A stretch of 64,000 nucleotides of DNA. Source: Antedon mediterranea. Its lineage: Eukaryota > Animalia > Echinodermata. The position numbers and the translations under genes were made by a program. The DNA is taken from NCBI RefSeq assembly GCF_964355755.1, contig NC_092676.1, forward strand, positions 25,624,871 through 25,688,870. Reading direction: 5' to 3'. Position 1 is the first letter of the stretch; every line of letters begins with the position of its first letter. Shown one piece after another: positions 3,762 to 30,862 of this stretch. Under the pieces are notes generated by a model that searched no databases, was not told the DNA's origin, and saw only the letters and a program-made list of their open reading frames with translations.

Positions 3762-3845
3762 TATTACATAGCCTGAAGAGAAAAGTATGTTACAAACATC
3801 AAGCATAAAATAATATGAAAAAATCTGATCTGAAATTAAACTCAC

Positions 3846-4006
3846 TTGAGTCCAGTTTTTAGGCTGTCTAGGATAAGCTGTGTTCGCTGAGGCCTGGGTA
3901 TTCTGGGCATGATTTTGTGAATGTTCCGGCCCAGCTGGTTCATTCTCATCGGCTTCTTGTGTTTGAGCCGTCGCTGCACCGGAGGGCTAGCAAAGCTACC
4001 GATGTT
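3846..4006 (-). CDS. RIPOR: RIPOR/FAM65 (Rho family-interacting cell polarization regulator), common internal exon; gene continues beyond the left edge
   Basis: Acceptor ttttctgtctgtag, donor gtgagt. Only phase 0 is open: NIGSFASPPVQRRLKHKKPMRMNQLGRNIHKIMPRIPRPQRTQLILDSLKTGL, resembling RIPOR2 PKEPQPKRVEEVYRALKNGL. Ends in phase 2; no downstream exon found in 1-3845. Confidence 0.8.
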
Positions 4007-5673
4007 CTACAGACAGAAAAACAAAACTCTAATTAAATTGATATATCAGTTTTTTTTAAATAGAAGCAGTAAAATTAAGACATTTCATTAAAAAAAAAAT
4101 GATGAAATCAATGTTGTTTATTAGTAGACTTGCCAAACTAAATTAAGAAACTTGGATGAGAATGAAATGTTCAAATAAGGAAAAACAAACTTCATAAAAA
4201 CAGTGTTCTGTTACTAAATAAGCACAGTATTTATTTTTCTAGACAATATACACAGTGCGGTACTACAGTAGTCGCCCACCCACTGTGTAGTCCGTTTTTT
4301 TTTAACATTACAAAAGAGACATTGTTTTGGCAGAAGAAAGTGTCCATAAAAAAATATAAAACGACTCTTTTAAAATAAGATTAATGATTATGGTATGTAG
4401 TAATAGCATCAATAAATGCGTCATTTCACAGACAACAACAACATTAATTACCTTTCACTTTCAGGCATATACAGTAAATAAACTATATTACTTTGGTAGT
4501 ACCGTCATACAGTAGTACAATTATAATGTTCCTAGTAAAAACGTAATTCACTTTTAATTAATGATTTTGTGACAAAGTTATTAACTGCCTATCCAAATAG
4601 ATTGTGACCTTTTCCTTTCACACTGATGATGCTATACAGCAACGACCAACATTATCATGTGATGTAGTTTATAAGTGAAAGCAAGACGGTATGATAACAT
4701 TATATCTATCAGCACAACAGATACCATTAATAGCGCAGTTTGAACTTTCATTTTCATGCATGTATACATAGAGATTTATTTAGTAGTAGGCTGGCGTCCG
4801 TATCAAGCCTTTAGCTTTGTTTACAGAGAGGTGCTTTTCCCAAAAAAGGAGGAAAGAGAGAGAGTGTTAAGCAAGCACTATGACCTTGGGGACCAACGAG
4901 AGGGGGGTGGGGAGAGGCTACGAAAGAAAATATTTTTTTGGTCTACAGTAAATGAAGGAGTGGGTCAAATATTTTTATGAGCCATGCTTTTACTGTTGGT
5001 CTCAAGTTTGAATAATGCACTGCCTCTGGGTGTCTGTATAGAACACCCAATTTGATGATTAACTACAGTATAGAATTATATATTTATGTTTATCCTTGTT
5101 AATGTTATTTTGCCACCAGCACTATCAGGAGAGTCTTTTATAGCGATATTTTTTGCTTTTTGACAATCCGCCAGGATAGTGTTCTGCGCTTTTTCTCTGC
5201 TTGTTGTTGTTCTATGTTATTTAAATGCTTTTTGTATTTTTTTGTTTTGTTTTATTTTTTCTGGATAATAAATGAATATGAATATATGAATATATTCAAT
5301 AGTCCAAATACATTGATTGATCGAAATATGTTTAAACATAGTTACTGTATCATTAAATTGTGTGCACAGTGTGGTTTATTAAAACACAACAACTATTGTC
5401 CTAAAAACTGGAGAAAATTCATTGTACAGTACAGTATAATTTATATAATAATTACATTTTTCTTGCTTAATGTAAACACAAACTGTATTACATGTAATTA
5501 AAATAAATCTAACTTTATTTACCTTGCCCCAAATAGTGGGCATAAAACGGTTTAAAATCAAGTCTTTCAGACAGCTCTATAGTTATAACTTACAGTAAAG
5601 TAAACGTTTTAATAAAAAGTTAACATTCCGTCTAACTTAACATTTAAACAATATCTATGAAAGAGTGATTTAC

Positions 5674-5730
5674 CTGTAGCTTGCGATCAAAGCAACGAAA
5701 AAACAACTCAAAACATCCACAATTATACAT
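5674..5730 (-). CDS. Candidate alternative first coding exon of RIPOR (MYNCGCFELFFRCFDRKLQ)
   Basis: ATG at 5730, 19 open codons, CAG|gtaaat donor in phase 0 matching the 4006 acceptor. Short, so a chance match is possible. Confidence 0.5.
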
Positions 5731-6506
5731 GGATACATTCAACAAAGAACAATTCAGTAAAGAAAAGTAAATAAATCCTTAAAGGCGATTGTCACTTAAT
5801 TAGCACCACTGTGAGGTTAATAAGAAAATGAATTTAAAACAAATGCAAAAGTTAATATAGTCGTCTGTTGGAACAAAATCATTATCAGTCCTCCACAGAC
5901 TTTAACACATGAAAAGTCCATTTATGGATAATAATATCCATTCTATAAATGTCAAATCTATCGATAACGCATGTTGAAATAATTACTAAAAGTTTCATCT
6001 GCAATCTGCAGGTATTCAAAGAACGATCTACAAAGGAAATGTCAAAAGTCTTAGATGCTAAAAACGAAATTTGAACTTTCTTTTTAGCACATGGTTTTAG
6101 AAAAGAAATCTGGCGCCAATTCAAGGTATTAAGATTTACACTGTCAGATAATTAATATACTGTAAGATATGAAATGAACAGAAATATATCATATTAACTT
6201 TGATAATAGAAAGTTGATGCTTATACAGTAGTAACGTTTTTAACGTTGATAATAGGAAGGTAAAGTAAGATAATAGTGTAAGGAAGGTATTAAAGTACTT
6301 ATACTACTTTATTGAAATATGCACTCCTGTACTGTAGGGACTTGTGTCCTGGCCTAGCCAACAGTGTCCGTGGCGGTCCAGAAAGTAAGGAAATAGTTTC
6401 AACTTTTCTTTACATTTTTTTTACTTTCTATGTACGGTAGTCAAATAGTTATCCTGTTTTGAGAGATTTTCTATTTTTTCAGGAGTTTCAGTTTGGGGAG
6501 AGATTA

Positions 6507-7435
6507 ACGCCCGTATTCTTAAACCGGACTTTAGTCGTAGTTCGAGCTAAAACTAAAAAAATGACGTCATTTTAATTCATAAACCGAACTTCAACTAAAT
6601 CACCGACTAAATCAGGCCAACCTCGACTAAATCGAGACGGATTTTGATCGATTTTTTTAGTCCTGGAGGGGGCAGACTAAATGGTCGACTAAATGGTTTT
6701 AAACGATGTTTATAAAAAACGTAACAGTCATTGAGTTGTTATATTGGCCAGATATTGAAGAATGAAATATCTATATTTATATTAGCTTAATTAAATATAC
6801 ATTGGTGTAAATTATAATAATGAAAATCATCTTTATTTACAACTGTATACAAATTACATTATTTTCTTCGCGCAAGTCCGACTTGAGCTACGTCACGCCA
6901 TAGCGACAATGACAGATGCGGCAATTCACCACGCGATGGAATGTTTAGGGGGCCTAGCGCTTTCTTGTCACGCTATGAAGTGCGTGGTTCGTCACGATCA
7001 TACTTTGTTGGGGTCCTAGAAAATATAAAAGTTACCGTACCGCCATGGTTCCTAAATATATTTTGAAGATTTTGTTTGTTGTTAATCAAATATACTTCAC
7101 TGTTAAATTAATACTGATCTTGTTCTAATAATTAACGATTAAAATTATTTTTCATGTATATAGTCCCGATGTGTAAAAAGTGTTGTAAGAAAATGGAAAG
7201 TGATATCAATGCGCAAAATTTCGTCTGCTCCTCAAATACTCTCTTGTCATTGGCCAATGTATAGCCTTTGTTACCCAGACGTGTGCAACTCGACTAAAAG
7301 CTCGACTTCATTAAGTCGAACTGCAAACTTCGACTAATTCGTTTTTGAATCGAATTTGAAGTAATAGCTCGAACTACGACTTTTTCAAGTCGAACTTCGA
7401 ACTACGACTAAAGTCCGGTTTAAGAATACGGGCGT
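6507..7435. mobile_element. Non-autonomous DNA transposon, PIF/Harbinger-like
   Basis: 39-bp perfect TIR ACGCCCGTATTCTTAAACCGGACTTTAGTCGTAGTTCGA (6507-6545 / 7397-7435), subterminal CGACTAA repeats, TAA/TAG-like flanks. Confidence 0.85.
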
Positions 7436-8456
7436 AGGTCAGTACATTAAAACATTTGTTCACACATCTTTTTGCAGATATAAAGTTTTAAAATATTTTC
7501 AAAATTCTAAAATTAAGTTCCTATCAGTTCCTGTTAAACTAAGATAATGTTAAATTCTACTTTTACTTCTTTATAAAATAAAAGAAAAAAATGTTAAATT
7601 CTCAATGAGTGACAGGAAAAGATTTTCTTTCATTACTGAAAATTAGTCCGAGAAAAAAATGTATCCGAGAAAAAAAAAATATCTTCAGAAATGATAAATT
7701 TAATCAGGAAGATCCAGGTCTCAAAAACATCCCGAGGCACGCTCTAATAATATTTTCTGTTTTAAAACGTTAATATATTAAGAAAGTTACTTTTCATATC
7801 TAATAAAATACAATAATTAAACTTTAAAAATATTACAAAGTTATGATTTCTTATTTTTCATTTATCTGTTTTTGTATCTCAGAGCAAACATAATTTCTGT
7901 GTATTTTTATACAGTACGCAAATGACAATATATTGAAGACATTTTCCACTGATGAATATATTTATGGTTTTCACAGGAGGTTGAGCTTAACTTGCCAAAA
8001 GTTATAATCTTTTTAGTAGTAGCCGGCATTATAATATTTTAAACTATGTATACAGTAGGTATGACACGCCATGTGTGCCAAAATGTTTTTCTTCTTTAGA
8101 ACCTACTATAGACTACAGTACTATAGGTATAATATTAAGGAAGGATATGGATGATCATTGTATGTACTGTACAACTTTCATTCTTTAAACTACTGTATCG
8201 ATGACTATTTTTCTCGCCTAATAACACACTTACACTTTGTGTGTTATCTGCTTCCAACCAGGGCGAAAATGATCCAGGATATAATAAGGGGTACTAACCT
8301 CAAGTTGATTATATCCAGGGACCTCTTCTAAACTCAAGTCCACTTATAATTATAATTTAAGAATCAGGTTAATTCTAATATTTACAGTATTTGTGTAAAA
8401 CCTTTAAAAATTACTACTGTAGCTTGCTTAAAATTAAATAATTCAGCACGAGTAGT

Positions 8457-8775
8457 GTAAAAATACTGTACATGCTACTGTACAAACAATCTACAGTAAT
8501 ACTGTAAAAATACTGTACATGCTACTGTACAAAAAAATTACAGTAATACTGTAAAAAATACTGTATATGCTACTGTACAAATAATCTACAGTAATACTGT
8601 AAAAATACTGTACATGCTACTGTACAAACAATCTACAGTAATACTGTAAAAATACTGTACATGCTACTGTACAAACAATCTACAGTAATACTGTAAAATA
8701 TTGTACATGCTACTGTACAAACAATCTACAGTAATACTGTAAAAATACTGTACATGCTACTGTACAAACAATATA
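8457..8775. repeat. ~47-bp minisatellite, 6-7 copies
   Basis: Unit TGTAAAAATACTGTACATGCTACTGTACAAACAATCTACAGTAATAC in tandem. Confidence 0.95.
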
Positions 8776-9395
8776 TACTGTACTGAAATGATTCCACAAT
8801 ACAACTTGCCACTATGAATACTGTATCACACGCCACCAAGCCTGCCTTATTTATGGAGTCACGTCTGTTTCGAAAACTAACATTTATACCGTAAATTGTT
8901 CTGCAGTTACAAAAGGATCCACAGAAGTCTTGCCACAACTAACAGCGAGCTTGCCTTATCTATAGCAAGCCAGTCAACAGAGTATTAGCTAAGGACGACT
9001 GTTGTAAGTGGTGCCACCAACGCAAATTAAGGTATCCTGACGGTTCATAATGCAAAGTTTTTTTTAGTGTCTACAGCGTACTCAGTAAGGAAATATAATC
9101 TGTCAATACATTATTGTTGGTCAAGGTTTTAACCATTAAAACCACTTTTGTATGTAGTACGCCACATATCTTTCAATAGAGTTTCTTCCGTCGTTTAATA
9201 ACTATTGTAATTTACACAAAATTAAATTAATAATTTTTTGTATTCTTTCCATTCAACCATAGTATTGAAAGTTCTTTAAAGGAGAAAGTAGTTGGTTAAT
9301 TCAAGAACAGGTTAATTCTAATTTTCAGTTATTTTGTAGAGTATACAAACTTTTAAAACATGTACAGTAACTATACTCAAAATTACTGTACTCAA

Positions 9396-9537
9396 GGGAA
9401 CTCCAGGAAGGGAACTCCAGGGAGGGAACTCCAGGAAGGGAACTCCAGGAAGGGAACTCCAGGAAGGGAAATCCAGGAAGGGAAATCCAGGAAGGGAACT
9501 CCAGGAAGGGAACTCCAGGAAGGGAACTCCAGGAAGG
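9396..9537. repeat. 14-bp purine-rich minisatellite, ~10 copies
   Basis: (GGGAACTCCAGGAA)n; explains the spurious ORFs 9325-9594 and 9360-9614. Confidence 0.95.
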
Positions 9538-10513
9538 AAAGGGTGAATTCCTGTGATGGGATGCCTGAATTACTGGAAAGGGAAATGAATACAACTGGGA
9601 GGGGGAAAGGGTAAACTTCTCAGAGGGGATATTTGATACTATAGAATGTTTAGAATATTTAGAAAACTCGGATCTCAGATATATCTGAGATTTCTAGACA
9701 CCCAATGTTGGGATAACAATTTTGAAGTACAGTAGGTCATACTCCCAAGCAATTAAAAAAAACACATTCACATTGTTACTATAGTATAGCTTTAGGGTAC
9801 GGACATGCCTCCTCATTAAATTTTAAAGTTGTACTGTAAAAGTTCACTCAACCTTTATACAGACAAAGATACAATTTCATAATAAAAACAGCTATACCAA
9901 TAAAATAAAATAAAATTAAGAATGATGCTTTCTTATTAACACAATTATGTAAAAAATAAATATTAAAATTCAAATTTAAGGGTATTATATTTGCCAAATA
10001 ATTAAAGCTGACCATGTTATTTTGATTACCACAAGCCTTTGTTTTATCTTTCAGTTTCATCAGCATTTGAACACCCATTAAACACACAATCGCAGTAGGT
10101 CAACGACCATCAAGTTATTGACCCAAGTTTCATCTGGTATTGAATTTCAAGATTTCTAGTATGATGATGTTTTCGGCACTTTTTTTAGATGAAAGTGTTA
10201 AAACATATTTTTGATATTAGTCATATTTTATGGTCATTGAAATCTTAAAATATATTATTAGGGTCAAGACGATTATTCTATGTGACTGGTTAAGTTAAAA
10301 AGCTATTATAAAGTTTGAAAGATATTATTTCGGAGTATAGGCATTGTAATTACAGTCTGGGTCACTGACTTTACTGTATAGTACCTCTGAATTATGAATT
10401 TGATAGATATAGTCGTATTACGAGTCTCAATTTTTTTCCTTTTTTCCGTGTCATACGCATGTAATAGTGAGAAACTTGCCTAATTCCAGGATTGATGGAT
10501 ATCCTATAACTAA

Positions 10514-10643
10514 AGCTCTGTCTACACTATCAAACTAGTTTGAGAAAAAAAGTGTGAAGTGCCCAAATAAGGAAGTGATATACTCAAATATGGTAGTGAT
10601 ATCACATCATCATGTCCATATATGGGCACATAAAGACAGAGCT
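10514..10643. mobile_element. AGCTCTGTCTACAC-family MITE (internally deleted copy)
   Basis: Left TIR AGCTCTGTCTACACTATCAAACT, right end AGACAGAGCT, TAA/TTA flanks. Confidence 0.85.
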
Positions 10644-10689
10644 TTAGTCTCATTTGAGGTTAGGAAGTGGAGCAGAAAACGTTAATTTA

Positions 10690-10770
10690 AAACCCTGACA
10701 CACTAAGTCAGGATTGAACCCAGGACCTTGGGATTGGAAGGCAAGCAAGTTAACCATCCTGCTCCAACCA
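10690..10770 (-). mobile_element. tRNA-Gly(TCC)-derived SINE head fragment (second copy on + at ~22945-23015)
   Basis: GGTTAAC..GCTTGCCTTCCAATCCCAAGGTC..GGGTTCAATCCT in both copies. B box present, cloverleaf degenerate. Confidence 0.6.
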
Positions 10771-11776
10771 TTTTTATACCGATTAATATTTATTATCCGT
10801 TCCTTTCTGTACAATATTTTGACCAAATATAGAATATAAATTGTCTTACAAAAATATGATTTTCAAATCAATGCTAAGAAAAGAAAAATAGTTTCAGTTT
10901 TACAAACAAAACAAACATATCTGGAAGTGCGTATTGATTGCTTCCACCAGTTATGATCTATTGTTAATATCTGACAAAGTTTATTATTCAAATAATACAA
11001 TACATAACTACACAATGATAAGGAAATGAAATAAAATAAACATGTTGGACATGTAATATCCGTCAATTAGTTGTATTACATCACGTTCACAGATTTGAAG
11101 AAGAAATGTGAAGTAGTCTACAGTGTTTTAAACAGCCTGTTGATGGGTAATTACAAAAATGGTTAAACTCTACTTTGAGACTCTGACTGCACTACAAATA
11201 CACTACAACAGGAAGATGCGGGTCCAATCAAAACCAAACAGCTTGTTTCTATTGAACAGAATATGGAATAGTATATTTGAAGAATTCCTATTTCCTTGCC
11301 AGCAGAAATATCACAAAAAAGAACTGATCTTAAAAACTGTTTTTAACCCTAAATCAGGTTCCATGGAGAAATTTCGCAACGCAGTAATAGTCTCAATTTG
11401 ATCTATCTACAGTACAGTAACTGACTATTCTCTGTGGATACAGTAATATTATGACGTCAATGCAAAGGTTATTTCTGTGGCCACAACCAACATTAACATT
11501 ACACTTATGAAATATTAAAACTTTGATTACGCTGAAACTATGAAAATATATTAATTTTGTCAAATAATCATATTCAGTAACATTAATTACTGTTGTACAA
11601 TAGACCTACAGTATCACAGCTTTTGTAGACCCATCTGGAAATAATAGGGTATATGTAAAATAACAATAATAGTGTGATTTTGTGTGAAATAAAAACAATA
11701 GCTAATTGTTTAAAAACTGGTCTTTGGTCTGTGTACAGCACATGATCTTACAATACAATTTCCATCACCCACCAAA

Positions 11777-11889
11777 TATACCATATGTGTGCATATATAC
11801 CATATGTGTGCATATATACCATATGTGTGCATATATACCATATGTGTGCATATATACCATATGTGTGCATATATACCATATGTGTGCAT
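11777..11889. repeat. 19-bp minisatellite, ~6 copies
   Basis: (ATATACCATATGTGTGCAT)n. Confidence 0.95.
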
Positions 11890-13778
11890 TGAAAATAAAA
11901 ACCTAGCTGAACTACCTAAGTAATACAGTACATTTTATTTTCCATTTGAATTGAAAGATGGTAAAATTGACATTTGAAAGGAGACTGATACTGTACCTAT
12001 AAATTATACAGTATGTTGGTCATGTAGCCTAATTAAGAAAATAGCTTGAAATAAGCATCACTACTTATATTTACATTTTATATTAATATCTCATACTTTG
12101 TGTAAATATATTAATTTACAGATATTCATGATAATGAACAATTAAACCAATAGATTTAATCTTGTTCAACAATAATATCACAGGTTTATTTGGTTAGAAA
12201 TTCCAACATGGTTACGGTATACCAGATCATAGAGATATTATAGTTCACAATAAAGTCAATGCTTCTAAAAGGGCAAAGGGCACTCTCAGTCTGAATTGTC
12301 TGGTTATATTCAGAAAGTCACAATTTTCAAGATGTATTATAAACATTAAAATAATAAAAAAGCATTTACAACGCCTAATCAATGATTGCTCATAGGCGCA
12401 GTACATATGTATAAAACCATTTTAAGAATTAAAACAACTTTAGACAGCAAGTAAAGATACCATAAAGGTCTACGACAATTAATTGGAAGTATGGAAACTG
12501 ATTCTTTGTAAGGATTTACATGGGTCATAGTCATCCTAAATCTATTGTGATTTTTGTATAATACAGACTATATGTAGATTAAAAAAAAAAAAACATCATA
12601 AAAACAAATGCGAAAATGTTTCAGTCTCAAGTTCTCAGAGAGATGGATTTCGAGACAGTTGACTGTACTATGGATAAAATAGTTCATAGACATGACGACA
12701 ACAAATGTTTTTGGTTGCCAAACACCTGAGAAAAGATGCAAATATTGACTACATGCTTCGGGCAAACACTTACCACACATCAAACAGAATAATCTGAGTA
12801 ATATCCAGTTTGTTAATTCCTATAATTCCGAATGAGGCAAGTAACAACTTAATATTGCACTATTATAGCTACTAACACCCTAACAATACAGTCTTCCTAG
12901 CATGTGATTACCTGGTTGACTATTATTGCTATATCCCTCCCGATTGTTCCGCATCATTGCACAATATCAATATATTCTTACTGGCTATTATTGTCCCTAA
13001 TGAAGTCTTTGTACTAATATATAGACCACCATTCATACATTAACTTAGTACTAGTAGTGCGTTCAATAGATTTTCCATTCACTTGAACATATCACATGTG
13101 CTGGTTCCTAATTCTATTATTTATGGAAATATCCTATAAGATATGTTGTTTTGATAGAGTTCAATGACCTCATTATACTATTTACTATTTTTACCACTTG
13201 TTAAGTTTAAACTGCTATATATTTTTTTTTTTTTTACAAAATACAAGTATAATTTTTCTAAAAATGAATAGTACACCAGATATGTGACATTTCCTTCCAA
13301 AAACAATTGAACCCCATTATACTGTAATTTTTTATCCTAAATTATATAATTATATATTCTAGGTTCTTTTTATTTTTTTAGTAATGTGTTTTGTTGTGGG
13401 TCCCTACGAGACAAGTTTTTAACTTCTAGAAGGGATCCATGATAATAATGACTACCAATTACTGCTTTATCTATGTTCACTTTAATATCTTTTTTCTATT
13501 TTGTATATATTCATTCATTATCTAAATAAATATTATCTGAATCTGAATCTGAATCTAACATGAATGAGTTTTACTGTACTTTTATACAATCACATATCAT
13601 TAAAATAATCAGGCTCAGAATTCAAGATTTTCCTGCAAAATATCACTCCTAATTAACATTTTCCTGTGAGCTGCATGTACAGTAACCATGAATTAATTAA
13701 ATGTAGTCTTAATAGAATCTAATTAAAAGATGGTTAACATAAAAAAAACTCAAGAAGTAATTATACAGGAAGCCTTTA

Positions 13779-13937
13779 AGCTCTGTCTACACTATCAAAC
13801 TAGTTTGACAAAAAAATGTGATGTGCCCAAATATGGTGGTGATATGTCTAAATATGGTAGTGCTATGACATCATCATGTCCATATATGGGCACATCACAT
13901 TTTTTGTTACATAAAGTTTGATAGTGTAAACAGAGTT
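13779..13937. mobile_element. AGCTCTGTCTACAC-family MITE, full copy
   Basis: Both TIRs present, TTA/TTA TSD, internal 20-bp CCAAATATGGTAGTGATATG repeats. Confidence 0.9.
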
Positions 13938-15417
13938 TTAGATAATAAAATATCATAGACAGGCTAAAAAAGGCTAGTTCAGCTAAAAACGGAAATTAAA
14001 ATTGATATTTTGTTATTTAATCTTTCCAATAATTTCATTTCATAATTATCAATTATAGTAAATTATACAGTATTATTGTAAATCAATGACAAATAAGGTA
14101 AATATAACACACTAAAGCATAAATTGTTTGCATTTTCCAAATTTGTTTGATTATTGTGTTTGATTTCTTCCTTTCCTTGAAAAACACACACATTTTCAAT
14201 ATATACATTTAAAATATTTATAATATACTTAATATTACTTAAGTCATTGTCGGCCGACTAAAAACAAGTCCTACTGTAATAAATAACACTGCAATTATTG
14301 AACAAAACATCAAAACATATTTAACATGGCTAATTACTCCTGACTTGACAGCAGAAATAGATTTGTCAAACAAATCAATGGGTTCAATACTCATTCAGGT
14401 AGCAATACAATCTTAAATTGAACCAATGTTCTGCGTCAGTAAATATCAAAGAAACAATTTCTTTTATATTCACAAGTTGCTTGTCATTTATTCAATACCG
14501 ATACTATTTTTTAACAATTGGATTTAAAAAAATTGTTAGAAAAATAGTTTAACAAAAGAATATAGTACCTGGGGTTTTCAAGAAATTTAAATGCAACAAT
14601 TTTACTTTATTTAATTTTTTAAAGATGTATTTCCCCAAAAACATGAAAAATGACGATTAATAAAATCAAGCTAATCCCTTCTGCAGAAAAAGTGAATAAC
14701 TATTTAATATGAAACATAATTTTTTCATGAAAACAAAATATCATAACAAAAAAAATGCTTGACAAGATTAGAATACTAAATCTATTAAAAACTAAAACAA
14801 AATGCGTATTTTAAGGTTTTTAATAAGGTATATTTCGTTCACTAAACTTTTATGTGACCTTAGCTCAATATGTAGGAAGCTACAATAGATTAAAGATAAT
14901 CTTGGTTTATAATAGATTCCAGAATATCGTATCAAAAAGGCCAACTTATGAAATTGAAAGTGTCATAAAATTGTTCATGACAAGAAGAGCTAATTTAATT
15001 TAGCTCTTGAAAATAAAACTAATTCTCTTTCTTAATCTTAGATTTTGATAAATTATTTATTATACTTTTTTCATGTTATTAAACAGTAAGTTTTTGTTAA
15101 TGCTTGTGTTCAATGTCAAAACCTACTTGGTCAGTAGTTAGGGGTGGGTCAGGGGGTAAGATTTTGAACATATGAAATATGAAAACATGGTTTATACATG
15201 GACCTATGTTTTATTATAGGTTGCCTAATAACACTACATTCTATAGAAGATCATGTGTACAACAACAACAAATCTGTTTAAAGCAGCATGTGAACTGTTC
15301 AGAATCCATATGGAAAGATAAAATTCCTAATCAATGAAAAGTTTAAACCTAAACCAAACTGATTTCACATCATGTACAGTATAATACATAATACAAAGTT
15401 AAGAATCCGTGCCTTAC

Positions 15418-15468
15418 CTGTTGGTAGCCTACTACACGGCGTCTAGGTGGAACCGACACCCCACGCAT
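15418..15468 (-). CDS. Candidate alternative first coding exon of RIPOR (MRGVSVPPRRRVVGYQQ)
   Basis: GC-rich patch in an AT-rich intron. ATG at 15468, 17 codons, strong CAG|gtaagg donor in phase 0. Confidence 0.55.
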
Positions 15469-18290: not shown

Positions 18291-18641
18291 CTTGGTCATC
18301 TGCTGCGGCACCGGCGACGAAGAACGAAACTGTAAATCAACTGGATCTGGATCAACCGACAACACATCAATCGCGCATCGCTTAATAGAATCATCTTTAA
18401 AATCAGAAAGCAAACTCTCGACGGATGACGCAGAATTTATACTGTTTAAACTATCCGTCTTGTGAAGAAGATTTGGAACTTCTAGATGTTGTGGATCGAA
18501 CGAACGCCTACGTAAAGCGTCCAATTCACGCTGTTCGCGACTTTTTCGTTTGTTCCAGTTACGGAGGTGTTGATATTTCAACGCACCCCCGCCGTTGGGC
18601 GTCAACAAATTGTCATCAAGAACCGGTATTACTGTCTCCAT
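18291..18641 (-). CDS. Alternative first coding exon of RIPOR, 117 aa (METVIPVLDD...PVPQQMTK)
   Basis: The first 117 codons of ORF 18006-18641 are protein-like and GC-richer. AAG|gtatgc donor in phase 0 at 18290; the rest of the ORF is F/I/L-rich intron read-through. Confidence 0.7.
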
Positions 18642-21600
18642 ACTTAGTAGTTAATAATCAAAAATACTGTAGTATGATATACGGTTTGTTGAGATTTGTG
18701 CAATAAATATATAATTTTGGTGATTAATATAAGAACAATTGGTTTAAATTCAGCTCCTCCAGATTTGATAAAAACTAATGAAACATACTGTACTGCGTTT
18801 CTATAAGGAATGAAAGAAAAAATGCTATCGAAAGATGACATTGAAAATAAACAATGGACTAAATAAACTAAACAAACACTAACAATATCACTTTCTAATA
18901 TCATTTAGCTTGTTGGAAATTCTTCTATACTTGATTAATCTAGCATCTTTAAATTTGTTTTTCCTGTGTTGCTATGGTTTTAAAATAAACATTGTTTAAC
19001 ACACACTTTTCCTAAAATATCAATCTCACAGAACATATTTGAATTATAAATCTAAATATGTTTAAATCAAACTTTTTTTAAATAATAAAAATTTGTTATA
19101 AATAAACACTAACAGGAAAACAATAAGTAGTAAGTACCAATTAAAACAATTGCTTACAAATGAACTAAAATAAAAATAAAACAAACAGTTAATTATTTTT
19201 TAGTATTCCTTCTATAAAGACAAAATAGCAAACAAAAATTTAAAACAAAAATTACATACAAAAACTGAAAAAAACTCCTGAATACTACCAGCAATAATAT
19301 TGTTTAGTCCTCTAGGCTTTGATTGAAAATGAACTACCACATGAAAAAACAAGCATGCTCCTCTGGGCTGCTGAGTAATTACAACAATATGTTTAAAAAC
19401 ACACCCCTAAACAATGGCTGTTTGTTGTACGGCTCCTCACCACAGAGTCAAAGGAAAACACACAACTTCCTATCGACCTTTCCTACTTTTTTTCCTGAAG
19501 GCATAAACAATCCTACTCAACACCTATCTACAATTAATTAAATTAAATTCCCTTCCTTTGGGAGAGATTCAAACCATTTAATACTGGAACGAAAATTATA
19601 CATCTGTATTTAAGGACTCTATCGGGGTTAAGAAAATTTATGAATTTAACACAATTTAAGATGTTTCTTGGGAATTGAATCTCTTTGTATAGATATCATC
19701 TCCTTTTAAGGATGAAAAATAAAACCTTATTTGTATACTTACACCATCCAAGTAAAACGTGTTACAATTGACTCACGTTTTGAATCAAACAAAGGAACTG
19801 TAGTTTTGCAGTCAAGAATATATTGTTTGCTTTTTTTCTGTAGACTGTATTCCTCCTACCAAAACAATGCTTTATGAATGTACTATACCACTACCAAGGG
19901 CCTGTGTAAATTATTATGGCCTCTGGCATGACCTTGGCTAGTTTCAGTGACTTATGATGAGTCATACAAGATTATGCTGGGCATCCCTAATAAACAGAAT
20001 ACAAAGACCTATAACTAGAAACCTAACAGTCTTCTCATTAACAAACAGGTCACAAACTGGACTATTCTATTATGAAATAGGTAAAATATATAATTAATAA
20101 GTTCTTGTATCTATTACGTCATCCAATGTTAAAATATGAATATGGAATATTGCTTCCTCAATTTAAATGTAACAAGAGCAGTTGTGTAGTTGTGATGTTA
20201 TTATGACATCATTTATAAGGTTGTGGGTCAATGGCAACCAGATGGTTTAATAAAGAAAATAGTACTACTACTTAAGTACAGAATTAGACATTCCGAGAAG
20301 AATTACTAACATTATTTAATAATAATAAAAATTATACAAAGACAGCTATTGTGATATTTAATGACAATGACATTTCAATTTGTACTGTATACTAGGAAAA
20401 AAGAGTTACCGTCCAGTGAAATACTAGAAATTGAATAATCTTTTATGCGGTAAAGATGAAGAAATCTGTGAAAAAAATAAGAAAAAGCCCACACAAATGA
20501 GATTCGAACCTTGCTTCAAATTCGATCGCCCGGGGTAGATCCTGGATTTCAATTAAGTCAACCTTATATCTCAAATTTTAACCCCTTGTTTACTTTTACT
20601 ATTTATTTTTTTCAGTAATTTGCCTTTGGATTTACACATATATATTTATAAAAATTTGATGAAGTGTGAAAATCAAAGTATTCACTTTGAAAATTAAATT
20701 CTAATCAAATTAAAGTTTTCCATTTTCATTGATTTTAAAATTGCCCTTGAAGGTTTTATGTCGTGCGCCATGGTCTTCTAAAGGAAGGAAACTTTATAGC
20801 AGTGATAAAACTTGTTTTTAATACGGCTTGACAACGCATGACCTTCTTTTAAATAATAATGATCTAAAGTAATAAACTTTAGGATGTTTTCTTATGTAAG
20901 AAAGGACATTGTTTCTCTCTACATTATCAAACTAGTTTGAAAAAAAAAAGTGAGATGTGCACAAATATGGTAGTGATATGCCCAAATATGGTAGTAATAT
21001 GACATCATCATGTACATATATGGGCACATCACATTTTTCTGTCACATAAAGTTTGATAGTGTAGACAGAGCTTTTGTTGGGATATTTGTTAGGTGCAATG
21101 CAAATAGAATAGTGATTTCTTTGACAAATATGGCCAAAATATTTCGAGTTTGAGTGAGAAAATGCGCAGTTTGGATCAAGCTAATTTACTACAGTATATC
21201 AAAGTTTTTTTGTTAAATTTATATTTAGAAACATTTAAATAAATACTATGCCCTTGTCCTTAAAACTACAGATTATCCATAAGAAACTATAGAGGGCGTT
21301 ATAACACTAAAGTATACAGGCAAAAGCATGTAGATGGAATATACTTTGTTTAATGATATCGGGATTGATATGACTCCTTGTTAGTGCTCGTTATTAAAAA
21401 GCTGTGCTTTGCTATTCCTTTCAGACAGAGCTAACCACAGTATAGAATGACATAAGTCACGTTTTGCAGCTTATTTTCCATATTAGCCACAAAACCACTC
21501 TACTAAAAAATGTATTACCTGATACCATGGTCTATGACCATAACAGAGCTTCGGTGAACAAATTTTAATGCAGAGACTTGATAAAGCTTCCGTTTTCGGG

Positions 21601-21835: not shown

Positions 21836-21948
21836 TTTCTTCAGATTCAGATTTATTTGGTCCTTGCAGAAATTCATGACAGTTATTCAAACTTTGAATA
21901 ACTTTCATGAATTTCTGCAAGGACCAAATAAATCTGAATCTGAAGAAA
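21836..21948. repeat. Near-perfect 113-bp palindrome
   Basis: 56-bp arms, 1-nt spacer (C21892), one mismatch. Confidence 0.95.
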
Positions 21949-23240
21949 TAAATTAAAACATCTAATTAATTGAAAACAAATATGAATTTGTGTGGTAAAA
22001 AAAATATAACAGGAAATCTATGAGTTTAAACAATCCAACACCAAACGAAATGTAAAATGTTGAACCTGGGTGGTTTGACATCAGTGAACATATGTATTGT
22101 AATAATACCGATGATATTAATAATATTAAAGACAGAACATTAATCTTACCATTGTCATTTATTGATGATTGATGACTGAACAATCACGAATAGACTTAAT
22201 AAATATCCACAAACAAAACCGATCAGATCTATCAGAACATTCAGCACAACAAGTGAACATCTAGAGAAATCCACAAACCACCAAGTCTCTATATAAAGTC
22301 ATATGATCTACACAGTAGATTCTTCACCAGATAAATATACACAAATGTAACACATTATGCTGAGATACTATTTCTATTACTTCCTATATTGAGTACTATT
22401 TCATAGTGGCTGTCTGTTGCATACACCGTTCATATGGCAACAACAGCCTTTAGGGGATAGGGGTAGGATCTGCAACATGTGCTCACAGTACAGGAAGTCA
22501 TAAAGCTTACATTTCAATAGACAGGCTGTCACTGGTTATCGACTAACCATCACATTTTAAAGAGTGATGATTGAGCCTACTAGATATTCACTGTCGTACG
22601 AAATACATGTGTATATGCATGTGTATTATAAATTAATTTGCATTTTGTTTATAAAGTGATAATTGTATTTAAGTATTAAATAATTCAAATAAAATTTATT
22701 GTAAATTATATTTGCAGTTTTAAGTCTATAACTTAATTATAATTTCTCTATTTGAGTGGTATTATTGTTATCAATTATTATTGTCAATTGATTTGTATTT
22801 GAACAAATTTATATTTTATAAAATTAATTAAATATTCATGAAGTCAAAATATATGTAGGTACTGTAGGCTAATATAAATATCTTAAATCACCACGTCCCT
22901 CCATCCACCCCACATTTCTTTCTTCTAACAATATTTGAAATTGAGCTATAGCTTGGTGGTTAACATGCTTGCCTTCCAATCCCAAGGTCTGGGGTTCAAT
23001 CCTAGTGCCAGGGCTGTAACTCATATTTCAACTCCACTCCCTAAAAGCCTCAAAACTTAGTTTATAAACACGATAAATTATGAAATAGTTTATTCATCCT
23101 GTGTAATTGGCGAGTTTGTACTCACTGTTGGATTTGTATGAAAAAAAAAATCACTTGCATTGCAATAAGCAGATTTATATGTTTACTCGCTCTATGATTA
23201 AGACCCAACTTTTAACACTGTCAGCAAACCCTTTGCTTAC

Positions 23241-25547
23241 CTTTGAATGCTTTTGCTCACACATATTCATAGATTCTTCACCTTTAACAATATCTTTGAA
23301 TTCAGCTTCTCTCACATCAGATCCGCCTATATCTATATCATCATAATAATCCATTACTTTACTGTTTTCTTCAGTTTTTGATCTTTTCAGTACATTTTTG
23401 AAATGGCTCCACTGAACACTTGATTTCTGCATTTTGTTTATCGCAGATGACTGATTCGGTTCCAATTTCTCTTGCGAGGTTTTCCTGCCAAATTTCTGTT
23501 TTTGTTCTTTAACAAAATTGTTTGATCTGAGTTGTCCATCTAAACTATCTTTAGCATTCTCAACATGATCTATATCCTTTGTTTTAAACGCATTAGAAAA
23601 TTTATCTAACTCTTTAGATTTTCTATATTCTTGATTTGATGGCTGGTCAGAAAGATAACTGGAATTTGTGATATCTGGACTAACGCCTCTACTTGAGTTT
23701 ACGATAGTAGGGTAGATCCAAGTGTTTGGAGCAGGACTTCTCACTGATCTCATAGTATGACTAGCTAAGGATGTATCGGCAGAAGGACTAGATACAACTT
23801 CGCCCTCTTCAGTACTTACTGAAATATTTCCACTTGTTGTTTCTGGTGGACTGACATCTAGACTGCCATTTAAAGATGGTTCAGTAAAGGAGTCACTCTG
23901 TAATATCCAATTTAAGGATTTGTTTGGCCAACGCCATATTTCACAGTTGATGTGTTTGTTTAAATCTTCTGGTAAAGACTGACATCTTCTGGTACTGGTT
24001 CCTTGAGATTGGTGATTTTGTTTACTATACAGCGTCTTTGGAGGATATGTTAAATGTTTTAAATTAGAGGGTGCTTTCTTGTTGGGAAAGTCTTGACCGA
24101 CAGTTATAGTTGGCTTTTTAGACGACAAATTGTCCTGAGTAGAATAGGATAAATTAGAGGATGCTTTCTTGTTAGGAAAATCTTGACCGACAGTGACAGT
24201 TGGTTTTTTAGATGGCACATTGTCCTGAGTAGAGGAAGATGAAATATTTAATTCAGCTTTACTTGAAGGATTTGTCAAATTCTCAGAAGTCACACGTCTT
24301 TTTAAGTTGGAATAGAGTCTGTCAGGACTGATTGATTTTACATTTGACTTTTGAGATTTTGAAACTGCTTCTTTAAAGGAAACAACGTTTTGTGTTTCAT
24401 TATATTTTGATGGTAGCTCCAATGGCTGTGACAATTTTTGTGAAGATGGAATATTTCCAGTGGAAAGACTTTGCGTTGCTGACATTTCATTTTTAAAAAC
24501 ATGGCCTCCTGGTGACATCTGCTTTCGAGGATGATCTCTATGATTCTTCACAAAATGCACTTGCAGTGATGAAGTCTGTTTTTGGACACTACGATTCTTC
24601 AAAACATTGTCTTTTGAAGAAATCTGTTTTTTAGAAGAATCAACTGTAGACTTTTTAGAAATGTGGAAGCTATTTCTTGGTGAAACAATTTTTCGAGAAG
24701 CATCAACTCTACGATGATCTTGAGTTTTTGATGGAAAAGGTTTATGCGAAGTATTAGTTAAAGACTGCTTAGAAATATGAACTTGGTTTGTTGTTGCAAC
24801 ACTTCCTTTTCGATTAATATTACTAGAGCTTTTTGAAACATGGACTTTTTCTGCTGAAACAGTTCTTTGAGATGCTGAACTTCTAATAGGAATGTGGTGA
24901 GAAGATGTTGATTGTTTCGATGTAGGCCTACTATGATTGTTAGAGAAATTTAATTGTTTTCTAGATGTAATCTGTTTCTGAATATGATGACTATTATCAA
25001 CGTGTCTTGATGAAGGTTGTTTTTCCGATGTAGTCATTCTACTGTTTACAGAAACAGACATTTGCCTAGTTGTATTCTTTTGTTTTGGAATACTCGTCCT
25101 GGAAGATATTGCAGCAACATAGTTTTTTGATGAACTTTGATTTTGAGAAGAAATATCTCCAGAATGTGATGTTCTCCTCTGCTGAGTAGTTCTAGGCTGT
25201 TTCAATTTAAGATTTTCTCTACTATATGGCAATTCCTTTGTTGCATCTTGTTCGTGCTTTCTTGCAGAAATTGCTGACTTAACCTTATCATGTTTCTGGG
25301 TTATATATAACATAGAATCTTTCTGTTGTTTAAAATGTACCTGACCATTTCTTGACTTTGGTCTACTTCCAATATCACACATGCCATTTGCAGCACTTTT
25401 TCCTCTACTGACCTCATGCCTAAATCTATTTTCCGCTACATCTTTTCTTTCAATATAATCCACTTTAAGTATTTCATCTGGAGACTTAATATTTCTTTGC
25501 GATGAAACATCACCACTGGATCGCCAAAGTTTTGATAGTAGAGACAT
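23241..25547 (-). CDS. Giant (769-codon) Ser/Lys/Gln-rich disordered exon, probable alternative N-terminus of RIPOR; otherwise a nested intronless 790-aa gene 23175-25547
   Basis: A 2.37-kb ORF in AT-rich DNA is very unlikely by chance. Consensus AAG|gtaagc donor at 23240 falls on a codon boundary (KHSK|). Internal 30-aa duplication STQDNxxSKKPTxTVGQDFPNKKAxSNL. Confidence 0.75.
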
Positions 25548-28500
25548 TTAGATCTTCTTGCTTAAACACTCAATAGTAAGTCCACATTATTTAACTCTAA
25601 CCACTTGTAAACAGAAATTCAATCCTTTTATTACCATCTATTAATAAATAGCAAACACAAACCTATAGATGTATGAACAATTCCAAGGAACTCGCATAGC
25701 AACTATTTACACAAGGTTTTCATGAGAATAAACACTGATAGTAATGAATATTGACAATATTTCCTCTTGTAATAAGACCATGTTTTCACCGACAAAATGT
25801 TATCAAGATGTTGACACACTGATGCACAAGAACCAATTGAATATGCTCCAATTGTAAAGACTGTGAAAAGACTAATTATATCTCAACTCCAAGGGAACAT
25901 AATTTAAACATAAACTGCCATTTTATACTGTACCCAGACCTCACAGAGAGGAGACAAACCAAAGACAGATTACATACTGTACAATGCCAAGGAGCACAGT
26001 CTAAAAGTATTTGTTAGTTTTCACTCAACCATGTCAACCTATTCTTACATTGATAGCACAATAGTAACCGAATAGGCTTAACAAAATCAATTTATTTAAT
26101 AGACAATAGGTAGCTTACCTATCTAGATTAAAAACTTGAATATCTCGTAGCCTGATTAAAACACAAGAGGATACACTACACTATCAAAGTAATATTTAAT
26201 TGAAAGACCCCTGCAAAAAAGTAGCTCCATTCAGCATGCAATCTGTTCTATCAATTGAATGACAATTGAAGAATTCCTTTATTTAAATAATCAGATATTA
26301 AACCAAACAAAATTGTTTTTTTAAATAATAATAGTTAATTTTTTTAAGCCTAAAGTTAATATGCTAATTTTTCATCTTTCTACTTTAGTTTTTTAACAAA
26401 TTCTTGGCCAACCCAGGGACATCCTATTATCACTATCAACACATTACTGTACTTTTAAATGTTTTTATACTTGTTCCACAGTCATCATGGTTCATATTCT
26501 ATGGAATAAGTTGGTTTTTTATGTAAATTCTACCACTGAAGTATGATGCAATAAACGAAATGACATTTGTTAGAGATTTAAACATTGAACTACTGAGTTA
26601 ATACAGTATTTCGCAACATAATAAGTTCATTAAACTTTACATTCGAATGGAAAAAAAGTACATAACAGTAAGCACAAAGGTAACCAAAATGCCAATTGAA
26701 ACAGCCAAAGATGAGACAGAATAACCTGTACTGAAGTTAAACTGATTTGTTTTCTTGATGTCCCGCGGAGAAGGCACGTCATTTGAGACCTTGTCGACTG
26801 TAGTTTGGCTGCTTCTGCTAATATCCGACAGACAGGTGTGTTAGGCTACATAGTGTGTTTACAAGCAATGGTGCCATCAAACTCACGGAACTACGCACTA
26901 GGATACTGAAAAAGCAACTTCTTACAATTCACTGGTGTGTGACAACAACTTGAAAGTGAATACTAAGAAGCTGGCGAGGGTCACAGAATTTTAATGTTTT
27001 ATCTTTTAATATATTACATTACAGGAATTCATGTTTTTTATGTGTGTAATTCATTTATTATTAATATTTATGTATTTCGATGTGGAGAGCCTCTCGACGG
27101 TTATTTTTATTTATAACATTTAGGTGCCTCATTGATTTACTTTTGTACTGTTTTTATATCTTTCTTTGTACTGTATTTTAAATTTGGCGAAATAAATGTA
27201 TCTTACAGTATAATACCATAGATTATGTAAATGCTGGTCACTTACTCATAGGTAGGATATAAAATAGACATAAAAAAAAGGAAAGATAGAAAAATTAAAC
27301 AAGAAACAAATGATAAACACAAGATTTTACACACAGAAGATTGTTGAGTTGTTTGTACTAAAAAGTCGAACTTAAATTTAATAATTTTTTGGATGAATAT
27401 TTTTTATGGATTTATAATTTTCATATTTTCTTAATTGGTCAATAAAAAGGGATCATTAAATTAAAATTGATAGTAAGAACAGATGTTATAATTGTATATC
27501 TTATACAGCTGAGGATGTGACTGAGAAAATGTGGTTAAATTATTCATTGCGACTTATTTATTATCTTGCAGCTGAGTTTTAACTGAAATTGCTTATTAGA
27601 TAGCTCGGTAAAACTAGTTTGTAGCCCGATTTCTTCATGGGTGAAATATGTCACTGGGCTACTAAAAATTGGCTATGATGTTAAACGGCACATTATCCTT
27701 AATGTACATTTGAATTATTATTCAAAAGGTAATTCAATCTTTTAATTATTTGTTAAAAATAGAGGGTAGCACAACACATTTATGTAGTCTACACTATCAA
27801 ACTTGTTTGAGAAAAACCAAATATGGTAGTCATATGCCCTAAAATGGTAGTGATATGACATCATCATGTCCATATATGGGCACATCATGTTTGATAGGGT
27901 AGACAGAGCTTTGATAAGTTTGGTGAAACATCAAACATTCTGTTTGTTTTGATAATACACCTTCCTATGGCTTGGCATGTGGACAAATATTTCAAAGAAA
28001 AACCACAAGTTTCTGTCTGGCTCCTTGGCTGAAAAATTTGCATCAGATGGTCACTGGTATTTTTAGAAACATTTTAATACTGCTGTCAAATTGATTATGA
28101 TACAAAAATAAACAGTTTATTTTTACATTTTTGGTCTATTAATAACTTTATCAAAGAACTTAATTCTGTTCAGTAAAAATCACGGGCAAGCCACTCCGAG
28201 GCTCTGTTGAGACTTGGGCTAGTGAACTGCCATGCTTTATATAGTGGGTATAGAAATTGTTATTGTTAATTTTGGACTAGCAAAAATGCATGGCTAGTAA
28301 AGGGTTAGAAATACTAGCCAATAATAAAGATAAATTGAAGAGGGTTGCCCACACGTTACTGTAAAAAGACTGAAGGGGGTACAAAGGTTAAAGGGCAAAG
28401 CCTTGGTTGGGGGTCATGAGCCAGACAATTGGGGAGGTTTACATTGGATTTCACACCATAAAGCCCATAATTACATGACACAAAAAAATATTTGAATGAA

Positions 28501-28563
28501 AATATGCCGGGAAATATATAATTTATAAGCCAATTTATTTTTAAAAAGTTTTGAGAGACTTAC

Positions 28564-28734
28564 CAATAGCGGGTTAATCAATGGATCACTTCGAAAACCC
28601 GCAAATGAATTACTCCGGTTCAGTGACTGGCGATGGGTGCTACTACGGCGCCTTAACGTTCCCGAAAAGTCTTGTAGCCGCCCTAAATAAAACATAGCGA
28701 GGTTACTAATGGAAGCGGTGGATAAACGACTCAT
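28564..28734 (-). CDS. RIPOR: RIPOR/FAM65 canonical N-terminal coding exon (57 aa)
   Basis: MSRLSTAS...SLNRSNSFAGFRSDPLINPLL contains the family motif RSxSFAGF (RIPOR2 RSQSFAGF). Acceptor tttataatctag 5 nt before the ATG (exon starts 28739); phase-0 donor gtaagt. Confidence 0.85.
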
Positions 28735-30862
28735 TGTGGCTAGATTATAAACAAAACATGATGACCGACGTTAATCCTTCCATGATATGACAGATATTAA
28801 ATGATATGACAAACCATCTTACATATGGAAGAGTTCATTATATCAATAGGGTCCCAAAAAAATTAAAAGGGCAATTAACAATTTAAATACACAATGATTA
28901 ATTGGTTAGTATATGAACATATAAATACATAAGAACGTATCTGTTGTTAAAAGTATAAAACTTCATTATTAAACGATATTAAATAAACTTTATTAGAAAG
29001 AGGATTTAGTCGGCTGTGGCTAGGCCTACATTCGTGATTATAGGCATGATGAGCACATCCGCTGCAAGGTATAGACCCCTGGTATGGCAGTTAAGCTTCT
29101 AATTTCAGAAACTCATAGGTTGTTTCTAGGTATCTATCATGTTGCAAGGTAAACAGTTTGCACAGATAGCGTGCTGAGGGTTTTAATATAGAAAGTACTA
29201 AATGCTGTCCGTTAAAAAAAAAATATTAATGGTGTTAAAAACAATGTAAATTTCAACCATAAATGAATTACCAATTTTAGAAATACTCAACATAAAATGC
29301 ATAATGAACAGGGAAAAATTTCATTTAAAAATTTTGTTTAGCAATATTGCTAATCAAACTGATTTTTAAGTCGAAAAACATTGTATTTTTTGCTACACAA
29401 TTTTCAAAATGTGTAGCAATAAGGTTGTTTTGTTTAGCTTTTTGCTATGCTACACTGGCGAAAATGTTCCCTGATGAACACTAATTTTTACATGATGAAT
29501 GTTATGTAAATGATGGGTACTTTTCAAATCTACACATCATTGCTGTATGAATTAAAACATATTCGTTTTGTTTAAACCAACTTTTAATTTTAAAAATACT
29601 CAACATAAAATTGTTATAAACATGAACACTAATTTTTACATGATGAATAAATGTTATGTGAATGATTGGTACTTTTCCAAATCTACACACCAAAACATCA
29701 TTTCTGGAAAGATTGGTATTCGTAATGCATTTTAAAGGGTTTTAAATTTGGGGCAAAATTTCGGACCTTAGGAACATTCTGGCGCCAATAAAACACTATT
29801 TCAAATTCACTGAAACAAAAAACAAGTAAATAAACAAACGTGTGAGGTGCAGAAGCACTATTGCAGTATTAATGACAAATTGTTACACCTGCCTTAGCCA
29901 TCAAGAAGATGTTGATGATAGACAGGTGGACAGCTGGCCCTTAAGGCACACCTGGAGGAAAGGTGTGTGTGCTTATTTGTTTTAAGAATGCTCTTCATCT
30001 ATACATTAATTGTCTATCTGATGGCTATTATAGTTGTAATTAAGGAATAAAATGCATTCATTCAAGATGGGTGATACTATCATGACAAAGTCAGGGCTGT
30101 AGCCACCAGTACGTTTGGTAAGGTTTGAACCCGACTACTTTTTCACAGAGGCTTTTGACAACCCAGTGGCTTGAACAGAGATTGTTCCCTTTTTCTTGTG
30201 AAAACCGGACCATTTTATTTCTCGTGGCTACATCACTATAAGTATATAGTCACAGACAATTTAGAGAACATTATCGGGTGGGATTATACTTGGATTATAT
30301 TGATGGGAATTTTGTGTCCATAATTTGCCTAAATTAGGAGGTGGGATTATACTTGAGTATGGGATTATATACTCAGTCATACACAGTGTATACCATGTGA
30401 CACTATACAGTGAAAATTAGTGGTTAGATACAAAAAAACAACATTTTTCTAAAAAGCAAAACTTTGAATATGAGAAACATTGCTGCAGAAATGATACATT
30501 ACATGATATGACATTTCGTCAATAAATGGAATTCTACTAAACAAATCTATTCACTCCCCAAACCATACTCACTTTTAAATCTAGTTCTTCTACTACCAAT
30601 TACTCCCAAAAACTAATATTTAGCGACACGTACGTATGTCAGGCAAGATGGGTATCATCCAATTGCTCCAGGAACAATGGAGGACAACATACAACACATG
30701 GAGCTTCAAGTGACATAACTAATTAACATCAAACTGTACTAGATTCTCATACAAACTTTCTCTGTGATGTTTCCTTATTCTATGAGATCTGACTTCTAAC
30801 ATTATTAAGATATTGTGTAAGGGAGATGTAGTTTAATTACCTGCTGTAGATTTCTTTTATAA

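What the first reader, a model, noticed from the sequence alone, without database searches (positions are those of the whole stretch)
3846..28739. RIPOR/FAM65 locus built as an array of variable first exons splicing to one constant exon
Seen in sequence: the constant exon 3846-4006 is open only in phase 0. Six separate minus-strand ATG-initiated segments each end in a GT donor exactly in phase 0: 28564-28734 (57 aa), 23241-25547 (769 aa), 22150-22158 (MTM), 18291-18641 (117 aa), 15418-15468 (17 aa) and 5674-5730 (19 aa). Knowledge: only the 57-aa exon has the conserved RSxSF site, a phosphorylation/14-3-3 site in vertebrate RIPOR2. Inference: promoter choice swaps the regulatory N-terminus of a RhoA effector, in a plectin/protocadherin-like variable-exon architecture. 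The three long exons are well supported; the short ones could include chance matches.
Basis: partly seen in the sequence, partly recalled or inferred. Interest (0 to 1): 0.85.

Follow-up and report, generated by a model that had tools for sequence, protein, structure and literature searches.

The report
Swappable front ends of echinoderm RIPOR
A feather-star gene of the RIPOR family (RhoA regulators in vertebrates) has at least three annotated alternative coding starts, plus a likely fourth, unannotated one of 769 residues, that join the same second exon, and only one of them carries the family's conserved phosphorylation motif; similar very long front ends appear in gene models of the four other echinoderm classes.

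Summary
The sequence observation holds exactly. The window is the 5' end of the Antedon mediterranea RIPOR2-like gene. Three of the six segments (57, 117, 17 aa) are already NCBI isoforms; a fourth isoform starts at a Met inside the constant exon. One RNA-like contig joins the 57-aa exon to the constant exon; no other junction was seen. The 769-aa segment is unannotated but clearly coding-like. Sea star, sea urchin, brittle star and sea cucumber models carry 389-1058-aa low-complexity N-termini joined at the same point, so it is likely a real first exon. The 19-aa segment is suggestive; MTM is at chance level. The exons are unrelated to each other, so this is plectin-type, not protocadherin-type. 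Multiple RIPOR starts are common in animals. What stands out: echinoderms switch downstream of the RSxSF motif (3 of 17 models keep it; 33 of 34 non-echinoderm isoforms do). The scan had no earlier RIPOR finding. Real, mostly ordinary, with one modest new twist.

The parts
3846..4006 (-). Shared coding exon (phase 0 to phase 2); holds the Met at 3949 that starts the 884-aa NCBI isoform X4
   Evidence: inside Pfam PF15903; covered by spliced contig
28564..28955 (-). V57 exon: 57 codons (28734-28564) with RSNSFAG motif, plus at least 221 nt of contiguous 5' leader; NCBI isoform X2
   Evidence: 861-nt contig of run X1 lies on 28564-28955 and 3845-4007; P0005; 56% identical to Diadema X2 N-terminus; CpG o/e 1.13
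28564..28683 (-). Internal phase-1 acceptor (TTTTATTTAG|GG, last G 28683) inside V57; likely entry point for an upstream exon (use in this species not shown)
   Evidence: Diadema X3 diverges from X2 at exactly this codon
23241..25547 (-). V769: unannotated 769-codon Ser/Lys/Asn-rich segment with strong phase-0 donor; likely giant first exon
   Evidence: analogous 389-1058-aa N-termini in four other echinoderm classes; no junction seen; 790-aa read-through ORF not in the collection
22150..22158 (-). MTM candidate; probably chance
   Evidence: CpG o/e 0.35; not among the 4 listed NCBI proteins
18291..18641 (-). V117 first exon; NCBI isoform X1
   Evidence: P0008; orthologue starts the Anneissia japonica model, 55% identity; CpG o/e 1.42; both listed variants synonymous
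15418..15468 (-). V17 first exon; NCBI isoform X3
   Evidence: P0009; strongest donor in the intron; CpG o/e 0.87
5674..5730 (-). V19 candidate (MYNCGCFELFFRCFDRKLQ); unannotated, amphipathic with early cysteines; possible membrane-anchor exon
   Evidence: hydrophobic moment 0.78, reached by 0 of 122 background 19-mers (chosen after the fact); CpG o/e 0.84; not among listed NCBI proteins

Best explanation
This is the 5' end of the feather star's RIPOR/FAM65 gene, in which unrelated coding first exons (57, 117 and 17 aa annotated; 769 aa likely; 19 aa possible) are each spliced, likely from their own promoters, to one shared exon, so promoter choice would replace the predicted-disordered N-terminal tail while leaving the HR1-like Rho-binding core intact. 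Shown: sequence anatomy, NCBI isoforms X1-X4, one V57 junction contig, family membership, and the RSxSF motif in V57 only. Inferred: separate promoters (CpG-retaining patches at V57, V117, V17), use of V769, tissue specificity. Predicted function: the V57 form keeps the S21-type kinase/14-3-3 site that helps release RIPOR2 from RhoA in vertebrates; the other forms drop that site and bring their own targeting or phosphorylation elements. The same switch point and a giant low-complexity N-terminus occur in models from all other echinoderm classes, so the layout likely predates their split. My odds: V769 a real RIPOR first exon 0.7, V19 0.45, MTM 0.2.
For: Four NCBI isoforms differ only before NIGSF. 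Spliced contig V57 to constant exon, depth 42.9 against about 5 for intronic contigs. V117 conserved in Anneissia and V57 in Diadema, each 0 of 300 shuffles. Diadema has X1 (389-aa N-terminus), X2 (V57 orthologue), X3 and X4 (internal Met); Amphiura X1 393 aa and X2 internal Met; Holothuria 870 aa; Patiria 1058 aa; all join at GLRG, the column of NIGS. These long N-termini match V769 in make-up (Ser 11-18%, order-promoting residues 17-23% against 33% in the body). V769 codon-position bias chi2 145.5 against a maximum of 13.9 in 58 intron windows and 64.2 in 2000 stop-free random frames. AlphaFold model: residues 1-91 below pLDDT 50, helices from 96 on; Pfam HR1 match at 166-223 (below its cut-off).
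Against: The only junction seen in the one RNA-like run is from 28563; contigs of that run cross the V769, V117 and V19 donors unbroken. V769 is in none of the 4 listed NCBI proteins, has no detectable homologue of 422-1346 aa, shows no significant alignment to the other long N-termini (best 7 of 500 shuffles with Amphiura), lacks the CpG patch seen at the annotated exons (o/e 0.39, intron median 0.47), and has an in-frame stop 21 codons past its donor with AATAAA 81 nt later. Two of three listed V769 variants change the residue, and one X1 contig over 22967-24452 has 33 differences and 23 gap letters that I could not place. RIPOR2 14-3-3 binding was mapped with five serines mutated together (PMC8741841), so losing one site may matter little. 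The structure model is weak (mean pLDDT 50.9, 8 sequences). I could not see the RNA support behind any NCBI model.
Confidence: 0.72

Rival explanations
1. V57, V117 and V17 are ordinary alternative first exons, but the 769/790-codon frame is a separate single-exon gene nested on the same strand, or an intronic-poly(A) product, and never joins RIPOR; V19 and MTM are chance.
For: Frame runs on to a stop at 23175 with AATAAA at 23094; no junction in run X1; absent from NCBI isoforms; no CpG patch; short hits near chance rate.
Against: Second-strongest donor of the intron sits in phase 0 near the end of the frame; four other echinoderm classes have long N-termini of like composition fused at the same point; the 790-aa product is not in the protein collection either; AATAAA is frequent here (7 in 1.7 kb).
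Confidence: 0.2
2. One dominant promoter makes the V57 isoform; the other first exons are low-level or neutral promoter noise with no distinct function.
For: Only the V57 junction was seen; V17 and V19 have no orthologue in the proteins retrieved; many distinct N-termini appear in scallop and octopus models too, which suggests easy gain of starts.
Against: V117 keeps 55% identity with Anneissia and starts that species' only listed model; a 769-codon frame with strong codon bias implies maintenance; long N-termini start the only listed models of Patiria and Diadema setosum.
Confidence: 0.15
3. A protocadherin/UGT1-type array of duplicated variable exons that diversifies one recognition module.
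For: Tandem same-strand, same-phase layout before one constant exon.
Against: No pairwise similarity among V57, V117 and V769 (151, 239 and 90 of 300 shuffles score as high); no DNA similarity between exons in self-BLASTN; sizes range from 3 to 769 codons.
Confidence: 0.02

Closest known systems
Plectin (PLEC) multiple variable first exons (PMC3695321, passages read)
   Same: Several first coding exons spliced into one common exon 2; some first exons are non-coding and translation starts further downstream; isoform-specific N-termini target the protein to different places.
   Different: Plectin has nine coding first exons, the longest 180 aa, with tested functions; here 3 are annotated, a likely one is 769 aa, and no function is tested.
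Human RIPOR2/FAM65B (PMC9740487, PMC8741841, PMC6141708; passages read, one section of PMC8741841 in full)
   Same: Same family; seven transcript variants and four listed promoters; serine 21 phosphorylation in a 14-3-3-type motif; phosphorylation weakens RhoA binding.
   Different: The four vertebrate RIPOR2-type proteins I examined vary upstream of the RSQSF segment and keep it; the echinoderm starts replace it. PMC8741841 states RIPORs are vertebrate-only, which the echinoderm, hemichordate, mollusc, brachiopod and arthropod proteins contradict.
Clustered protocadherins and UGT1 (PMC1885805, passages read)
   Same: Tandem variable first exons before constant exons.
   Different: Their variable exons are similar paralogues made by duplication, a dozen or more; here they are unrelated and few.
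NCBI models of Antedon mediterranea RIPOR2-like, XP_071955553-559 (555 not listed)
   Same: X1 = V117, X2 = V57, X3 = V17, X4 = internal Met (three accessions).
   Different: V769, V19 and MTM are not among the four proteins listed.

Membership tests
RIPOR/FAM65 | N-terminal PL48/FAM65 domain (PF15903) | tested here: met
   290.9 bits against cut-off 31.4, residues 39-376 of the V57 isoform
RIPOR/FAM65 | HR1-like Rho-binding motif and C-terminal HEAT-like repeats | tested here: inconclusive
   HR1 29.4 bits (cut-off 33.1) and HEAT_2 21.9 bits (cut-off 27.7), both below cut-off; helical hairpin at the HR1 position in the model; these parts lie outside the window, in the NCBI protein
RIPOR/FAM65 | Binds RhoA and 14-3-3 | not testable with these tools
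   needs biochemistry with phosphorylated protein
Plectin-type variable first exons | Two or more different coding first exons spliced to one common exon | tested here: met
   NCBI X1-X3 map to three separate window segments plus the shared exon; one junction seen in contigs
Plectin-type variable first exons | Each first exon has its own promoter | tested here: inconclusive
   CpG-retaining patches at V57, V117, V17, weaker at V19, none at V769 or MTM; no 5'-end data
Plectin-type variable first exons | Isoform-specific tissue use or localisation | not testable with these tools
   one RNA-like run, contigs only
Protocadherin/UGT1 clusters | Variable exons are paralogues of one module | tested here: not met
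Protocadherin/UGT1 clusters | Shared promoter element and CTCF/enhancer-based choice (recalled; titles) | not tested
   no motif search made; self-BLASTN showed no shared upstream block among the candidate exons

The most novel reading that the evidence does not exclude
Echinoderms have kept, across all five classes, a promoter switch that replaces RIPOR's conserved kinase/14-3-3 site with a giant (390-1060 aa) disordered, serine- and charge-rich head whose length and make-up are conserved while its sequence mostly is not, giving a RhoA regulator that escapes the usual phospho-release; in the feather star a further 19-aa cysteine-rich amphipathic exon would anchor another form to membranes.
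Probability: 0.3. Interest if true: 0.65.

Novelty: new member of a known kind. Interest (0 to 1): 0.4.

Why it matters
Alternative first exons are common and most of this locus is already annotated, so the layout itself is no surprise. What it adds: a likely missing 1,672-aa isoform in the crinoid annotation; evidence that a giant disordered RIPOR head is shared by all echinoderm classes; and a natural set of isoforms with and without the serine-21-type site, which would let one test how much that single site contributes to RhoA release, something the vertebrate papers I read addressed only with multi-serine mutants. It also shows RIPOR is pan-bilaterian, against a review's statement that it is vertebrate-only.

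Tried and rejected
No whole genome is held for this window, so downstream exons come from NCBI proteins and no other crinoid genome could be searched for V769. No RNA holder listed on record; run X1 is RNA only by guess, and its lack of other junctions or of cover in some intron stretches is not evidence of absence. Pfam found nothing on the four exon peptides alone. No homologue of V769 among proteins of 422-1346 aa; longer proteins were not searched with V769 as query, though searches with the constant part reached 1785-2000 aa and found no crinoid long form. ESM Atlas gave no usable hit for V117. No window match to the Diadema X3 upstream exon, and no convincing phase-1 partner among 40 upstream donors, so the entry exon for the V57 internal acceptor is not found. 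V117 as a relative of the long echinoderm N-termini: not significant (best 10 of 500). Patiria's long N-terminus ends in ERSPSP like Diadema's, but its alignment to the others was not significant; only Diadema-Holothuria was (0 of 500 on the last 130 aa, 2 of 300 on whole length). Literature: no paper held both 'RIPOR' and 'alternative first exon'; 2 papers held 'FAM65' and 'echinoderm', both unrelated by title and abstract start; searches gave nothing on this locus in their listings. Zhang, Haws and Wu 2004 is not held. No supplements were read. No complex prediction was run, since binding depends on phosphorylation.
Full report
Observation. Every coordinate is right. The 161-nt exon at 3846-4006 is open only in frame 0, and the six upstream segments each run from ATG to a GT donor in phase 0. 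With a recalled generic donor matrix and a threshold chosen to include the named donors, the intron has 17 minus-strand donors, 9 with an open phase-0 ATG, against 2.6 +/- 1.6 in 100 Markov simulations and 4 on the plus strand. The excess comes from the long or annotated exons. The five short hits (MTM, V19 and three unlisted ones) are close to what chance gives.

Identity. The constant exon matches 100% an NCBI protein named RIPOR2-like of Antedon mediterranea. Its cluster holds four proteins: X1 begins with V117, X2 with V57, X3 with V17, and X4 (three accessions) begins at a Met inside the constant exon. That such models rest on aligned RNA is my recall of NCBI practice; I could not see the support. 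Pfam PF15903 starts at residue 39 of X2, at the RSNSF motif, and covers the constant exon, so V57 encodes the ancestral start of the family domain and the other exons replace it.

Transcript evidence. Five runs hold the region, none on record as RNA. In X1, one 861-nt contig of depth 42.9 lies on 28564-28955 and on 3845-4007 with adjoining record positions and no mismatch: a V57-to-constant junction. No other junction appeared, and low-depth X1 contigs cross the V769, V117 and V19 donors unspliced.

V769. The frame is not chance (about 5e-26) and has strong codon-position bias in all three thirds (chi2 145.5; maximum 13.9 in 58 intron windows; maximum 64.2 in 2000 stop-free random frames). It starts at ATG right after an in-frame stop and has the second-strongest donor of the intron. 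Neither it nor its 790-aa read-through form was found in the protein collection. The best support is comparative. Diadema antillarum X1 (389 aa), Amphiura filiformis X1 (393 aa), Holothuria leucospilota (870 aa) and Patiria miniata (1058 aa) carry long N-termini that join the shared part at the same column (GLRG, matching NIGS), with like composition. Only the Diadema and Holothuria ends align significantly (0 of 500 shuffles on the last 130 aa); V769 aligns with none, and I could not check that those N-termini are single exons. Against it: no CpG patch at its start (o/e 0.39; V57 1.13, V117 1.42, V17 0.87; intron median 0.47), a stop 21 codons past the donor with AATAAA beyond, two residue-changing variants of three listed (40 of 146 variant rows were shown), and an X1 contig over 22967-24452 with 33 differences and 23 gap letters that I could not place. 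I put it at 0.7.

Short candidates. V19 has a hydrophobic moment of 0.78, reached by 0 of 122 background ATG-started 19-mers of the same intron, and two cysteines in the first seven residues (3 of 122). The test was chosen after seeing the peptide and the background peptides overlap, so it is a hint of a lipid-anchored amphipathic helix, no more (0.45). MTM has nothing beyond its donor (0.2).

A second tier. Diadema X2 begins with a V57 orthologue (56% identity). Diadema X3 replaces the first 17 residues and joins at G|RLQD; the Antedon DNA has a pyrimidine-rich AG acceptor at exactly that codon, phase 1, 28683. V57 is therefore likely both a first exon and a possible internal exon. V57 has no Met after that point, so a non-coding exon entering there would give the X4 protein (inference). 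The entry exon was not found. Plus-strand PHD-finger and NCKAP1 exons lie upstream from about 44.5 kb.

Comparison across animals. Several N-termini per gene are usual for RIPOR: five distinct starts among six Pecten maximus proteins, and more in Argopecten, octopus and a tick; human RIPOR2 has seven variants and four listed promoters (PMC9740487, passages). In the 34 non-echinoderm proteins printed, 33 keep an RSx[S/T]F motif ahead of the shared region; the exception, Ptychodera X3, starts further downstream. Many of the 34 share an N-terminus, I left out seven listed proteins (six octopus entries and a krill singleton), and six scallop members were not listed. In echinoderms 3 of 17 models keep RSNSFAG. 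A looser count over 55 representatives found the motif in 39, absent in 8 (one is Patiria; the other seven are unnamed) and 8 too short to judge, so loss is not strictly confined to echinoderms.

Mechanism. Shown: anatomy, annotation, one junction, motif placement. Inferred: separate promoters choose the head. The AlphaFold model puts the junction inside a low-confidence tail (1-91) ahead of the helices that include the HR1-like region (weak model), so the swap would not touch Rho binding directly. From the literature: RIPOR2 is phosphorylated at serines 21, 37, 341, 523 and 535 in 14-3-3-type motifs (PMC8741841, passages and section 6), and phosphorylation lowers RhoA binding (PMC6141708, passages). 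Predicted: the V57 form keeps the S21-type input; the others lose it and add their own (V117 has a conserved RRxS; V769 has 15 RxxS/T). Since the published mutants changed five or nine serines together, the weight of this one site is unknown.

Classification. It works like plectin's unrelated variable first exons (PMC3695321, passages) and meets the structural feature tested; promoters and tissue use are untested. It fails the paralogy test for protocadherin/UGT1 clusters (PMC1885805, passages).

Verdict. Real feature, largely annotated, a new member of a known kind. The likely unannotated giant exon and the echinoderm-wide bypass of the RSxSF motif are the new parts. Interest 0.4.

Noticed in passing
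window 44497-44732 +: Terminal-looking exon with a PHD finger (Pfam PHD_5, E 3.5e-09), on the strand opposite to RIPOR; PHF13/PHF23-like by recall.
   Followed up: partly
window about 48466 to at least 59159 +: NCKAP1/Nap1 gene (Pfam Nckap1 on three exon frames; start codon placed by eye). A WAVE-complex subunit (recalled) two genes from a RhoA regulator.
   Followed up: partly
window 51575-51692 +: Full-length single 5S rRNA match (78.1 bits) inside the NCKAP1 span.
   Followed up: no
window 32902-32973 - and 56072-56146 -: tRNA-Asp(ATC)-like sequences inside a 300-bp repeat shared by both places; likely tRNA-derived SINE heads.
   Followed up: no
window 10510-10631, 13775-13950, 20914-21074, 30860-31074, 41015-41168 and about ten more: Abundant 120-170-bp repeat with inverted ends and an internal 21-bp unit, very high depth in all runs; MITE-like.
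   Followed up: no
window 24060-24246 -: In-frame 90-bp tandem duplication (86% identity) inside V769; each copy holds a phase-0 acceptor-like site.
   Followed up: partly
proteins P0055 and P0019: An Arapaima RIPOR2 model and Diadema X3 both start with a short acidic peptide (MEEDF.../MEEFDWEDF...) ahead of RFPEIM/RLQDMS; possibly an old shared upstream exon. Seen by eye only.
   Followed up: no
PMC8741841 section 6: [quoted passage not shown]
   Followed up: yes
window 26118, 19440, 12773 -: Good donors without a phase-0 ATG; candidates for non-coding first exons behind the three X4 transcripts.
   Followed up: no
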